Positions 57,001 to 60,000 of a stretch of 64,000 nt of DNA are shown here, one piece after another (within the stretch, counting starts at the first letter, position 1; each line of letters opens with the position of its first letter). The position numbers were made by a program. The DNA is from a plasmid. The stretch is from the NCBI RefSeq assembly GCF_054482595.1, contig NZ_JBTHVH010000004.1; one strand, written 5' to 3'.

Positions 57001-60000
57001 GTTGGGTTTTCACCAGTCCATTTACCAACTGGACCGATAAAGTCTTCAGTGGTATTGAAGTTCCGTCTGAAGGACCGTCAACATTACTGGGTGAGGCTGA
57101 AAAATTCTTTCGTTTTGTCGTTAATGAAGAAGGCTACGACGCAGGAAGGGCTGCTCTTGGTCTTGACCTATGTTGTTTTTCACTTCCGTCGTGTTTGTTC
57201 CCGGACGCTGCCCTGTCTGAGGAAGAGGTTATGAGTAAGTTAACCGGAGAAGTTATCCATGGGATTCTTCTTTCCTTACCTGAATTTATTGATATGCCAG
57301 AAGTGCTCGCTTACCAGGTCAGGGATGAAATTCTTGCTTTTAACACTCGCTGTGGAGACGGGATCTTTCATGGTTGGAACACGGCTTCAGAATTGTGGAA
57401 GTTTGAAATCTTTCCCCGCACCACCATCATGATGCAGCATACTTCGGCAATACATTAAAATTAGGCGGGGCAGAATGCATAAAAAACTTTTTCTTCTCGA
57501 ATGGAAACCCTGTCAGAGCCGCGTATGGGCCGGTTGGATGGCCCTGTGGTTGACTATCAGTTTTCTGATGTTATCTGCCTTGCTTATGACAGATCATCTC
57601 CTGAACAAAGTCATCCTGCCGCCAACATGGTTGTTGATCTGGTTTTCGCCAATGCTGGGGTTTTTGATAAAAGTTCGCGTCGTCGAAACTCAACATTTCC
57701 TGGAGCATGACCTCTGTGTTGCAGGTTTCTCTTTTTACCGCTGGAAGAGGTTAGTTTCTCCCGGGCTTTGGTCAGTTGACTGTATAAATGGTCGTTTTCG
57801 CCTCAATCGGATCACCCAGGTGGGTAAGACTATCCACTATCCATGGCGTCTCCATTATCATCCTTTGTTCATGAGCCCTATCGAACATAAATCGCATGCT
57901 GTGAAAGCTGTTTCAAAATGACTTCTTTAGAGGTTTACATGACATTTATGTTCTGCAAGGTCAGCCAGGGCAGCAAAATTGATTTGAAATAACATGAGCC
58001 TGGAGAAACGTATGAGTTATGACGATTTGCCCTATTTTCGTGACCAGATTCTGGAACGTATCGACTCGCTTAAGTGTTTTCTTTCGAACACCCCCCCGCT
58101 GATGGCAAACCTGATGACTGTCTCCACCGTATCTCGAACAGAAGAGCGACTGAAGCAGGTTAAACCCATCAGGGTTAGTGTTAAAGACGATGCTTCGGTT
58201 GAGGAAATTATTCAGGCACTTACTGACATCTGTGTGGATGACATAGAGTCATTAAGTCATGATTCCACCAAAGTGACCACTAAATACCCGGGTCTTATCA
58301 TTGTCCCAGAAAGAGCAGATCTTCTCGAAAGCTTGATCACATCTATAAATGAAGCAAAAAATGATTTTGCTGCGGCAATGAGGCGTATCGATAATAAAAA
58401 GAATGTCCGTTTTGATAAAGTGCACAAGAAGCTCCCGGGCCTTGTCGCTATGCACTCAACAAGAAATGTCCTTTTCATCAAGTCCCAGCTTAAAAAAGTT
58501 ACTTTTTCATGGCGGCTAAACCGAAACCAGGAAGTTAAAACAGCAGAGCAACTTGTGAGTTTGTTGGAGCGCAGGAGAGCCTCAGAAGTAAAAAATGTAG
58601 CAACTACCAATTTGAATGTCGTGTCTAATATCGATAAGGCTTTACACCGTCTTGAATTTCACCCACTGAAGCAGGGCGAATCTTATCGCCTTTGTCGAAC
58701 TAACTCTTTCCCTGTTCCGATTGCTCACATTTTTGCATTTAGGCCTGAAGGGCAGGAACGAAACGGGAATAAATATGCTGAGACTGATTATTCAGTAGTA
58801 AAAGCATCCTTGCCCATTTTCGCAGCAGGCAACATACCTCAATTAAAAACGCTCTCTGACTGGGCTCCTGAAAACAGCCAGGGCCCGTCCAACCAACGGA
58901 AGCTGAGCCTGAAATATACAGAACTCGTGCCGGGGGCTGAGCTGGGCATTTTCATTGTCAGCCCCGAAAATTAAGGAACAACAATGCAATGGATTTCCAC
59001 AGCCAGCCAGAAAATCGATGAGCGTCTCTATCGTGTCTGCGTCTGGGTAAAAAAATATCACGCTGATGCGATTAACCGCGTTGTGCTTACCGTTGATCTA
59101 AGTAAAGCCCGACATGACCCTGACGAGGACCAGGTAAGAGCAGAGCTGCTGTGCGGCCATTATTTTTTGCTTCGTAAGGAAAACGCTTCGAACTCTGCGC
59201 CTGACGATCAAAAGTTTGCTTTCCTGCCTGACGGGCGCAATCTGTGTTGGCAGACCGCAACCCCGGTGCTTCAGCATCTCCTGCTCAATAAAAACGTTCC
59301 TGAGTCGCTGAGGTTGCTTACGGACTACATACATATGCGTCTGGCCAGGCTGACAATGGTACCAATGTCCGGAACCATCATGAACGAGGCTCTGCTGGAC
59401 AGCATCAGCTGGGTTAAGGTGGATTTGACCTACTTCTGGCAGTACGAACAGCTCAGCTCTCATCTGGGACCCATCCAGATAACCCACAAGGCACTAGTAC
59501 GCTTCGGGCATCTGGCAAAGAATGATGAAAACTCCAGTGCCATAAGAATCCTGCGTCAGCGTCTGTCTTCAGAATTCTTACAAGAATTTCAGATGGCTGA
59601 GGATGAGCTAAAGCGCAAACAGTCGTTGATGGGCACCATGGACGTGAAAATGCTGTTTCATGCTCATTACCCCAGCCAGAAGATGCTGGTGGCTCGATAT
59701 AAAAATGGTTGGGTAATGGTGGATTGTTTTCTGTTTCATCATACCAAACCTAAGAAAAAAGCAAAAAACAAAACTACTGTGGCTAAGCCTCAACTTAAAG
59801 ATACAAATTATAAATACTCTCAAGTGTATATTCAGTATGGGATTGCGCAATGATTGCCTAATAAAATTTCTGAAATATTTCTGTATCGCATAATTTTTTA
59901 TATCAGATAAATTGTACTGGATTTCTTAAAAAATTGCAGTATAATTGCCGCAATTATCCCACCGTTTATTTTTTTAATAGTTTCTCATGATGCAGCATAC

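What the first reader, a model, noticed from the sequence alone, without database searches (positions are those of the whole stretch)
57994..58974. Plasmid-encoded Tus-like replication terminator protein next to the mcr-1 cassette
The 326-aa product matches my recollection of E. coli Tus over several separated blocks: RFDKVHKKLPGLVAMHSTRNVLF, TFSWRLN, QLVSLLERR, FPVPIAHIFAF, and a hydrophobic C-terminal strand.

A dedicated fork-arrest protein would make sense on a multi-replicon 200+ kb plasmid, to trap forks or to protect the transfer region from head-on replication. It implies cognate Ter-like sites somewhere on the plasmid.

I found only one exact chromosomal Ter core (GTTGTAAC, minus strand, 36046-36053), and it lies inside trhN. 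The plasmid protein may therefore recognise a different sequence.
Basis: partly seen in the sequence, partly recalled or inferred. Interest (0 to 1): 0.5.

Follow-up and report, generated by a model that had tools for sequence, protein, structure and literature searches.

The report
Known plasmid Tus gene, Ter unknown
The gene is a real member of the Tus replication-terminator family carried on the IncHI2 plasmid backbone, but databases and papers already annotate it as such, and the only open question is which DNA site it binds and whether it stops replication forks.

Summary
The ORF is real, and the Tus assignment holds. Pfam Ter scores 69 bits against a cutoff of 22. A clade profile aligns to E. 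coli Tus with E=5.6e-8. An AlphaFold model (pLDDT 83) matches Tus crystal structures over the full length (TM about 0.75) and matches no other fold. The likely start is 58012 (320 aa), not 57994.

This is not new. [quoted passage not shown] An IncHI2 paper describes a tus gene and a potential ter site. Plasmid-borne tus has already been discussed as the source of chromosomal tus.

What I could add:
- The residues I recall as forming the cytosine-lock pocket are conserved. Two DNA-strand positions that are Lys/Arg in most of the family are lost.
- Neither the window nor an IncHI1 plasmid contains an E. coli-type Ter site. Both GTTGTAAC cores in the window are at chance level.
- One near-consensus Ter lies outside the window near oriT on IncHI2. 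It lacks G6 and is not conserved in IncHI1.
- tus sits about 57 kb from a Rep origin, at the end of a co-directional gene block.

The cognate site and any fork arrest remain untested. Interest is low.

The parts
58012..58974 (+). Plasmid Tus-family gene (320 aa, identical to WP_000119427.1). The maximal ORF starts at 57994.
   Evidence: The ORF is. Pfam Ter scores 69 bits. The hhalign match to E. coli Tus is. The Shine-Dalgarno sequence before 58012 is.
58984..59853 (+). ORF tightly coupled downstream of tus, with a 9-nt gap. It is conserved next to tus in all four lineages. Here it is 289 aa because the mcr-1 cassette junction at about 59807 replaced the last ~27 residues of the intact 301-aa form.
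   Evidence: Synteny is shown. Homologues of 301 aa versus 289 aa and the C-terminal alignment are. The junction follows from coverage of mcr-free plasmids. It has no Pfam family and the AF2 model is poor.
57475..57921 (+). Upstream operon ORF (148 aa, no family). A 90-nt gap separates it from tus, and that gap holds no Ter-like sequence.
   Evidence: In other lineages a 202-aa ORF overlaps the tus start instead.
1..876 (+). Rep3-type replication initiator gene, with iteron-like repeats at about 1136-1195. This is the nearest origin, about 57 kb upstream of tus.
   Evidence: Pfam Rep3_N and Rep3_C match. The mapping to the RepB-family CDS of NZ_CP026492.1 is.
62781..62796 (.). GC-rich hairpin GCGCCCGTGAGGGCGC where the tus operon converges with the recombinase gene. 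It is a probable bidirectional terminator marking the end of the co-directional block.
   Evidence: The sequence is. It is conserved in IncHI1 and Photorhabdus.
62796..63980 (-). Tyrosine recombinase gene, the first minus-strand gene after tus. It is conserved in this position in all four lineages.
36046..36053 (-). It is a chance match without Ter flanks.
4785..4792 (-). It is also a chance match without Ter flanks.

Best explanation
This is the IncHI-backbone member of the Tus protein family.

Shown:
- It is a full-length, two-domain Tus-fold protein.
- It is encoded late in a long, conserved, co-directional backbone operon. That operon ends about 57 kb from a Rep3-type origin, just before gene orientation flips at a convergent tyrosine recombinase.

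Inferred:
- It binds, as a monomer, an asymmetric plasmid DNA site that differs from the E. coli Ter consensus.
- It acts as a polar replication-fork barrier by the same mousetrap principle as Tus, in which a base unwound by the helicase is captured in a conserved pocket.

The most likely purpose is to restrain one fork of the large multi-replicon plasmid. That could fix where replication ends, keep forks from running head-on into the ~57-kb Tra2/backbone transcription block, or prevent over-replication and rolling-circle run-on, as host Tus-Ter does for plasmid R1. The cognate site was not found.
For: Family membership:
- Pfam Ter gives E=4.6e-19, above the gathering score.
- A clade profile against E. 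coli Tus gives 94.7% probability and E=5.6e-8.
- The AF2 model has pLDDT 82.8. Its only significant PDB matches are four Tus-Ter complexes, with E about 1e-18 and TM 0.72-0.78 over about 328 columns.

Residue mapping:
- The Tus C(6)-pocket residues F140, H144 and G149 map to F134, H138 and G143, which are invariant or nearly invariant in the clade. I79 maps to V75.
- E49, K89, R139, R157, W172 and R232 are also conserved.
- Positions that are Lys/Arg in 83% and 72% of 119 diverse family members (K175 and K235) are N170 and F233 here. A173 is R168. This points to a different DNA sequence preference.

Constraint and context:
- 66 positions are invariant across lineages that are 45-65% identical, which indicates selective constraint.
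- Synteny is conserved in IncHI2, IncHI1, Photorhabdus and Lelliottia-type elements.
- About 89% of long-ORF bases between the Rep gene and tus are co-directional.
- The strong GC-skew arm from the origin fades at about the tus position.
- No E. coli-type Ter occurs in the window or in an IncHI1 plasmid.
Against: - No cognate site was identified. Conserved non-coding blocks shared by IncHI1 and IncHI2 are iterons, centromere repeats, hairpins and a symmetric palindrome. None looks like an asymmetric Ter.
- There is no Ter-like autoregulatory site upstream of tus, unlike E. coli TerB.
- The sequence match to Tus profiles covers only the N-terminal two-thirds, and scores are far below the NCBIfam Tus equivalog cutoffs (53 against 323 bits).
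- The alignment around Tus R198 and Q250 is unreliable.
- The identities of the pocket and contact residues rest on my recollection of the Tus-Ter structures. I could not confirm them in an accessible paper.
- The GC-skew signal is confounded by gene orientation.
- I found no experimental study of an IncHI Tus.
Confidence: 0.6

Rival explanations
1. The plasmid Tus uses E. coli-type Ter sites. It would bind the near-consensus Ter next to the oriT/Tra1 region of IncHI2 plasmids (AATATTTAAGTTGTAACTAATAT, NZ_CP026492.1 238747-238725, outside this window), and possibly host chromosomal Ter sites. It would then function like, or back up, the host Tus.
For: - That site is the best Ter-PWM hit on the 264-kb plasmid, scoring 20.0 against a shuffle mean maximum of 15.6 (sd 2.3).
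- It matches the 12-bp core AGTTGTAACTAA exactly and lies in an intergenic region.
- An IncHI2 paper mentions a potential ter site together with oriT and tus (PMC5923156).
Against: - Position 6 is T, not G, so the locking cytosine is absent. GC(6) to AT/TA changes abolish permanent arrest (PMC4499146).
- One of 30 shuffles scored higher (22.1), so significance is borderline.
- The syntenic IncHI1 sequence is not a Ter. The IncHI1 plasmid and the other lineage loci have no Ter above shuffle level.
- Family-typical basic residues in the DNA-reading strands are replaced in this clade.
- The site's orientation would block forks moving toward decreasing record coordinates, that is, only forks that have already travelled about 195 kb from the Rep origins.
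Confidence: 0.12
2. The protein is a repurposed Tus-fold DNA-binding protein with a role other than replication termination. It might be a transcriptional regulator of backbone genes, or a factor acting on other replicons or during conjugative DNA processing. Fork arrest would not be its selected function.
For: - It is embedded in a long operon of uncharacterised backbone genes (AAA_5 ATPase, DUF3150, VWA, Toprim, several ORFs with no family), not placed next to an origin or an obvious terminus.
- A conserved, tightly coupled partner ORF of unknown function follows it.
- No Ter site was found.
- E. coli Tus itself also acts as a repressor at TerB (PMC10331603).
Against: - The residues equivalent to the cytosine-lock pocket and to E49 are conserved. 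This is hard to explain if only duplex binding matters.
- The operon proteins do not match any defence system.
- The one strongly enriched backbone motif is perfectly symmetric, which does not suit a monomeric Tus fold.
Confidence: 0.22
3. The gene is a decaying remnant with no current function.
For: - Truncated or frameshifted copies exist in databases (P0004, P0030, P0034, P0043).
- The neighbouring ORF tolerates loss of its C-terminus after mcr-1 insertion.
Against: - The full-length ORF is kept at 99% identity or more on about 1,100 plasmids, and is intact in four lineages that have diverged to 45-65% identity with 66 invariant residues.
- The start has a good Shine-Dalgarno sequence.
- The protein is confidently predicted to fold.
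Confidence: 0.04

Closest known systems
E. coli chromosomal Tus (PDB 1ECR, 2I06; Pfam PF05472)
   Same: - Same two-domain fold over the full length (TM 0.73-0.78).
- Shared signature block RF-x2-VH-x2-LPGL, which contains the residues I recall as the C(6) pocket (F140, H144, G149).
- Conserved E49, K89, R139, R157, W172, R232 and P238.
- Similar size (320 aa against 309 aa).
   Different: - Only about 16-21% identity.
- Far below the NCBIfam equivalog cutoffs.
- Changes at A173, K175, H176, I177, K235 and Q237.
- No TerB-like site upstream of the gene and no canonical Ter nearby.
- Encoded inside a long plasmid operon with a coupled downstream partner ORF.
'Mobile' plasmid-borne Tus homologues (Galli et al. 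2019, PMC6549158; IncA/C, IncT and pAQU1 Tus, PMC4036041; tus of IncHI2 pSTM6-275 and R478, PMC5923156)
   Same: This gene belongs to that set. The identical protein is annotated as Tus on IncHI2 plasmids, and a 59%-identical orthologue on IncHI1. Like the others, it sits on a large MOBH-type conjugative plasmid, and it has no experimentally defined Ter.
   Different: Nothing distinguishes the copy in this window. The IncHI clade is only about 25% identical to the Tus paralogue on about 1,300 Klebsiella plasmids.
Plasmid Ter sites that use host Tus (R6K, R1/R100)
   Same: They offer a functional precedent: polar fork barriers on plasmids that enforce the replication mode and limit run-on replication (PMC10331603).
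   Different: Those plasmids carry canonical Ter sites and rely on the host protein. Here the plasmid carries the protein, but no canonical Ter is conserved.
Pseudoalteromonas chromid Tus
   Same: It is a Tus homologue on a plasmid-derived replicon for which searches with the E. coli Ter consensus also fail, implying a divergent Ter (PMC7858055).
   Different: There tus lies next to the origin and repA. Here it lies about 57 kb from the nearest Rep gene.

Membership tests
Tus / Ter-binding protein family (Pfam PF05472) | Significant match to the family profile, above the curated threshold. | tested here: met
   69 bits against a cutoff of 22, E=4.6e-19, covering profile positions 10-208 of 296. 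An hhalign comparison of the clade profile with E. coli Tus gives 94.7% probability and E=5.6e-8.
Tus / Ter-binding protein family (Pfam PF05472) | Full-length two-domain Tus fold with interdomain beta-strands. | tested here: met
   The AF2 model has pLDDT 82.8 and pTM 0.73. Foldseek finds only Tus-Ter complexes as significant hits, with E=1.7e-18 and TM 0.73/0.76 over 328 columns. This rests on a predicted model, not an experimental structure.
Tus / Ter-binding protein family (Pfam PF05472) | Cytosine C(6) lock pocket residues (I79, F140, H144, G149 in E. coli Tus; residue list from my own knowledge of Mulcair et al. 2006). | tested here: met
   F134, H138 and G143 are invariant or nearly invariant in the clade, and I79 maps to V75.
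Tus / Ter-binding protein family (Pfam PF05472) | Conservation of the base-reading residues of the interdomain strands, which would imply the same Ter specificity. | tested here: not met
   K175 maps to N170 and K235 to F233. Those positions are Lys/Arg in 99 and 86 of 119 family representatives. A173 maps to R168, H176 to R171, I177 to N172 and Q237 to V235. The alignment at R198 and Q250 is unreliable.
Tus-Ter fork-trap system | Canonical Ter sites (GNRNGTTGTAAYKA with G6) on the same replicon. | tested here: not met
   - In the window, no site falls within 1 mismatch apart from one unrelated hit, and there are two bare GTTGTAAC cores against 2.04 expected.
- The window's best PWM score is 12.4, below the shuffle mean of 13.2.
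- The full IncHI2 plasmid has one near-consensus site without G6.
- The IncHI1 plasmid has none.
Tus-Ter fork-trap system | A Ter site in the tus promoter, giving autoregulation as with TerB in E. coli. | tested here: not met
   TerB was confirmed 11 bp upstream of E. coli tus in L002. The 90-nt gap upstream of the plasmid gene has no Ter-like sequence. In the other lineages an upstream ORF overlaps the start.
Tus-Ter fork-trap system | Sequence-specific monomeric DNA binding and polar arrest of DnaB and the replisome. | not testable with these tools
   This needs biochemistry or in vivo fork mapping. I found no published experiment on an IncHI Tus.
Chromosomal Tus equivalog (NCBIfam NF002810, TIGR02648) | Score above the equivalog cutoff. 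| tested here: not met
   53.1 against 323 bits, and 20.9 against 178.3 bits. The protein is a distant family member, not an orthologue of the resident enterobacterial Tus.

The most novel reading that the evidence does not exclude
The IncHI Tus clade could be an 'orphan' polar fork barrier. It keeps the cytosine-lock pocket but reads a Ter sequence unrelated to the enterobacterial consensus. That site would sit somewhere on the backbone and define an unrecognised replication terminus, or one-way gate, at the end of the ~57-kb Rep-Tra2-operon block. Finding the site would give a second, orthogonal Tus-Ter pair. It would also give a direct test of the proposal that the chromosomal fork trap was domesticated from plasmids.
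Probability: 0.4. Interest if true: 0.5.

Novelty: already known. Interest (0 to 1): 0.2.

Why it matters
As found, it matters little, because the gene is a routinely annotated backbone gene of IncHI plasmids.

It would matter if someone determined what it binds. IncHI1 and IncHI2 plasmids are major carriers of mcr-1 and other resistance genes, and how these 200-300-kb multi-replicon plasmids finish replication is not understood. A plasmid Tus with its own Ter would bear on the proposed plasmid origin of the E. coli fork trap. It could also supply an orthogonal site-specific fork barrier for use as a research tool.

Tried and rejected
1. **Consensus and PWM scans for E. coli-type Ter.** I scanned the window, the full IncHI2 plasmid, an IncHI1 plasmid and three other lineage loci. 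Only one borderline site turned up. It is outside the window, lacks G6 and is not conserved.

2. **Search for 13-mers conserved in four lineages within ±10 kb of tus.** This gave only coding motifs, a post-toprim element and one small box at 55640.

3. **blastn-short of all IncHI2 non-ORF space against IncHI1.** The conserved blocks were iterons, 21-bp centromere-like repeats, GC-rich hairpins and the palindrome. None was an asymmetric Ter candidate.

4. **The AAAGTNACTTT palindrome as a possible Tus site.** I rejected this. It is perfectly symmetric, has 50 copies per plasmid and has no asymmetric flanks.

5. **Recombinase-hha intergenic region and operon-end junction as terminus markers.** I found only a terminator hairpin and a block that is not shared by all lineages.

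6. **Cumulative GC skew.** It is consistent with an origin at the Rep genes and shows an arm fading near tus, but gene orientation confounds it.

7. **Structure of the coupled downstream ORF.** The AF2 model has pLDDT 47 and is unusable, so I ran no fold search on it.

8. **PADLOC scan of operon proteins.** No defence system matched.

9. **Citable list of Tus contact residues, and the R27 and Neylon papers.** I could not obtain them from the held library.
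Full report
**Observation.** The biologically likely start is the second ATG, at 58012, which gives 320 aa. That start has GGAG 7 nt upstream, whereas 57994 has no Shine-Dalgarno sequence. RefSeq starts the CDS there, and all homologues begin at the equivalent Met. The gene is one ORF away from mcr-1 (59987-61612), not directly adjacent.

**Is it Tus-like?** Yes, on three independent lines of evidence.
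- Pfam Ter (PF05472) matches with E=4.6e-19 and 69 bits, against a gathering cutoff of 22. The match covers profile positions 10-208 of 296.
- A profile of twelve clade members aligns to verified E. coli K-12 Tus (taken from NC_000913.3) with 94.7% probability and E=5.6e-8, over residues 12-188.
- An AlphaFold2 model built on a 16-sequence alignment has mean pLDDT 82.8 and pTM 0.73. Its only significant matches in the PDB are the four Tus-Ter crystal structures (E from 1.7e-18 to 4.8e-17, TM 0.72-0.78, about 328 aligned columns). The next hit has E=0.36.

The C-terminal domain, which sequence profiles do not reach, is therefore also Tus-like in the model. RFDKVHKKLPGL aligns to [12 protein letters not shown] and TFSW to RFGW. 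VPIAHIF aligns to QPIARVW in a 131-sequence family alignment. The protein is a distant member of the family and not an orthologue of resident Tus. It scores 53 against 323 bits and 21 against 178 bits on the two NCBIfam Tus equivalog models, and is about 16-21% identical to E. coli Tus.

**Is it new?** No.
- The tus region of the window is 100% identical to pHS13-1-IncHI2 (NZ_CP026492.1; IncHI2A plus IncN, 264 kb). [quoted passage not shown]
- The same annotation appears on about 1,100 IncHI2 plasmids. A 59%-identical orthologue is present on IncHI1 plasmids.
- In all, 2,770 of 72,556 PLSDB plasmids give a Tus-family hit with this query.
- Galli et al. 2019 catalogued plasmid-borne "mobile" tus genes and proposed that chromosomal tus was domesticated from a plasmid (PMC6549158).
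- Tus homologues on IncA/C, IncT and pAQU1 plasmids were noted in 2012 (PMC4036041).
- I found no experimental study of an IncHI Tus. Cognate Ter sites of non-enterobacterial Tus proteins are acknowledged to be unknown (PMC7858055; PMC10331603).

**Residue-level comparison.** I built a family alignment of E. coli Tus, 11 clade members and 119 diverse representatives, drawn from an exhaustive profile search that found 230 family clusters.
- The E. coli residues I recall as forming the C(6) pocket are conserved. F140, H144 and G149 map to F134, H138 and G143, which are invariant or nearly invariant in the clade. I79 maps to V75. The residue list comes from my own knowledge of Mulcair et al. 2006, and I could not confirm it in the held papers.
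- E49, K89, R139, R157, W172, R232 and P238 are also conserved.
- By contrast, two interdomain-strand positions that are Lys/Arg in 99 and 86 of the 119 representatives are lost: K175 maps to N170 and K235 to F233.
- A173, H176, I177 and Q237 become R, R, N and V.
- Within the clade this region (RLCRTNxFPVPIAHLF) is nearly invariant.

My inference is a lock-competent protein with a clade-specific DNA sequence preference. The alignment around R198 and Q250 is not reliable.

**Ter sites.** My recalled TerB sequence was confirmed 11 bp upstream of E. coli tus, so the PWM built from TerA-J is anchored to real data.
- *Window.* The 14-bp consensus GNRNGTTGTAAYKA has no relevant hit within one mismatch. 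GTTGTAAC occurs twice (4785 and 36046, both on the minus strand) against 2.04 expected. Both copies lack G6 and the 3' TA. The best PWM score is 12.4, below the shuffle mean maximum of 13.2.
- *Full IncHI2 plasmid.* The best site is AATATTTAAGTTGTAACTAATAT at record 238747-238725 on the minus strand. It scores 20.0 against a shuffle mean maximum of 15.6 (sd 2.3, highest 22.1). It is intergenic, about 1.5-2 kb from the oriT/mobI region, and lies outside the window. Its 12-bp core is perfect, but position 6 is T, so the locking cytosine is missing. Such substitutions leave only transient pausing (PMC4499146).
- *Other lineages.* The syntenic IncHI1 sequence is not a Ter. The IncHI1 plasmid (best 12.7 against 14.5) and the other lineage loci have none.

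Canonical Ter is therefore not a conserved partner of this Tus clade.

**Search for a different cognate site.** None of these searches gave a candidate.
- Thirteen-mers conserved in four lineages around tus were almost all coding motifs.
- Comparing all IncHI2 non-ORF space with IncHI1 recovered iterons, a 21-bp repeat array by parAB, GC-rich inter-cistronic hairpins and a palindrome. It recovered no asymmetric Ter-like block.
- The 90-nt gap upstream of tus holds nothing Ter-like. In the other lineages a 202-aa ORF overlaps the tus start.

**Context and geometry.**
- The window begins at a Rep3-type initiator gene (1-876) with iteron-like repeats at about 1136-1195.
- From there to 62.8 kb, about 89% of long-ORF bases are on the + strand. 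The order is Tra2, par, and then a long operon holding an AAA_5 ATPase, DUF3150, VWA, Toprim, a run of ~300-aa ORFs and small ORFs.
- The operon ends with tus, a coupled ~300-aa ORF and a ~115-aa ORF. After that come a conserved terminator hairpin (62781-62796) and a convergent tyrosine recombinase.
- This order is conserved in IncHI1, Photorhabdus and Lelliottia-type elements.
- Cumulative GC skew on the full plasmid puts the origin at the Rep genes. The strong skew arm fades at about the tus position, but gene orientation confounds this.
[quoted passage not shown] It does not demonstrate one.

**Mechanism and confidence.** My best explanation, at confidence about 0.6, is a monomeric polar fork barrier of the Tus type acting at a non-canonical plasmid site. 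Family membership, fold and pocket conservation are shown. DNA binding, polarity and purpose are inferred. The rivals are:
- use of E. coli-type Ter sites (0.12);
- a repurposed DNA-binding role unrelated to termination (0.22);
- a decaying gene (0.04).

**Verdict.** The finding is already known, and interest is low (0.2). The only non-trivial residue is the orphan status of the protein: a conserved lock pocket, diverged reading residues, and no canonical Ter on its plasmids.

Noticed in passing
window, 18 sites (for example 987, 4825, 7134, 40540, 54302, and 58495 inside tus); also across L003-L008 and L014-L017: The palindrome AAAGTNACTTT occurs 18 times in the window against 0.16 expected. 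Its extended consensus is (G/C)AAAAGT(A/T)ACTTTT(C/G). There are 50 copies on the IncHI2 backbone and 26 on IncHI1, and none in the acquired resistance regions. 48% of copies lie in non-ORF space, against 21% expected (p=2.5e-5). The motif is perfectly symmetric, so it is probably the operator of an unidentified dimeric backbone regulator. I found no literature on it.
   Followed up: partly
window 58984-59853, with the junction at about 59807: The left junction of the mcr-1/pap2 cassette lies inside the ORF coupled to tus. The last ~27 residues of the intact 301-aa protein, including a conserved GTGHYGVHRVVTL motif, are replaced, giving a 289-aa variant (P0188, 79 member sequences, against P0189, 426).
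   Followed up: partly
NZ_CP026492.1 238725-238747 (L007:38725-38747), outside the window: A near-consensus E. coli-type Ter (AATATTTAAGTTGTAACTAATAT, with T at position 6) lies in an intergenic region about 1.5-2 kb from the mobI/oriT region of IncHI2 plasmids. It may be the "potential ter site" mentioned for pSTM6-275. It is not conserved in IncHI1.
   Followed up: yes
window about 12000-15100: There is an array of diverged ~250-bp repeats, each containing the 21-mer TGGCGATTAAGGGGGTTAAAT, beside the ParA/ParB genes. The 21-mer is identical in IncHI1, where it repeats about every 52-54 bp. It is probably the partition centromere.
   Followed up: no
window 41753-45856, intergenic gaps of the long operon: GC-rich hairpin-forming blocks of 36-52 nt lie between successive operon genes and are 92-100% conserved between IncHI1 and IncHI2, for example GGGTACTCACCCAGATGGTGAAGTACCCATCTGGGG. 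That is far better conserved than the flanking coding DNA. Their function is unknown; they may be RNA stabilisers or attenuators.
   Followed up: no
window 55640-55655: The box GATTTGTATACTGTTC lies about 30 nt upstream of the CDS at 55673 and is conserved in all four lineages. It could be a promoter or an operator.
   Followed up: no
window 29570-30338 and 22461-23791: Relative to pHS13-1-IncHI2, the window carries an extra IS1 copy and a ~1.3-kb insertion in the Tra2/par region. The window therefore comes from a related but not identical IncHI2 plasmid.
   Followed up: no
window 50403-55409: Five consecutive hypothetical ORFs of about 290-320 aa sit upstream of the tus sub-cluster, and the same arrangement is present in IncHI1 and the Lelliottia-type locus. 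They look like a tandem paralogue family, but I did not test paralogy.
   Followed up: no
L014:44959-48068 (IncHI1 p99COLEC-1): In IncHI1, an IS1-flanked RepE (RepFIA-like) replicon sits only about 4.4 kb beyond tus, just after the recombinase and hha. tus therefore lies close to a third replicon there, which is not the case in IncHI2.
   Followed up: no
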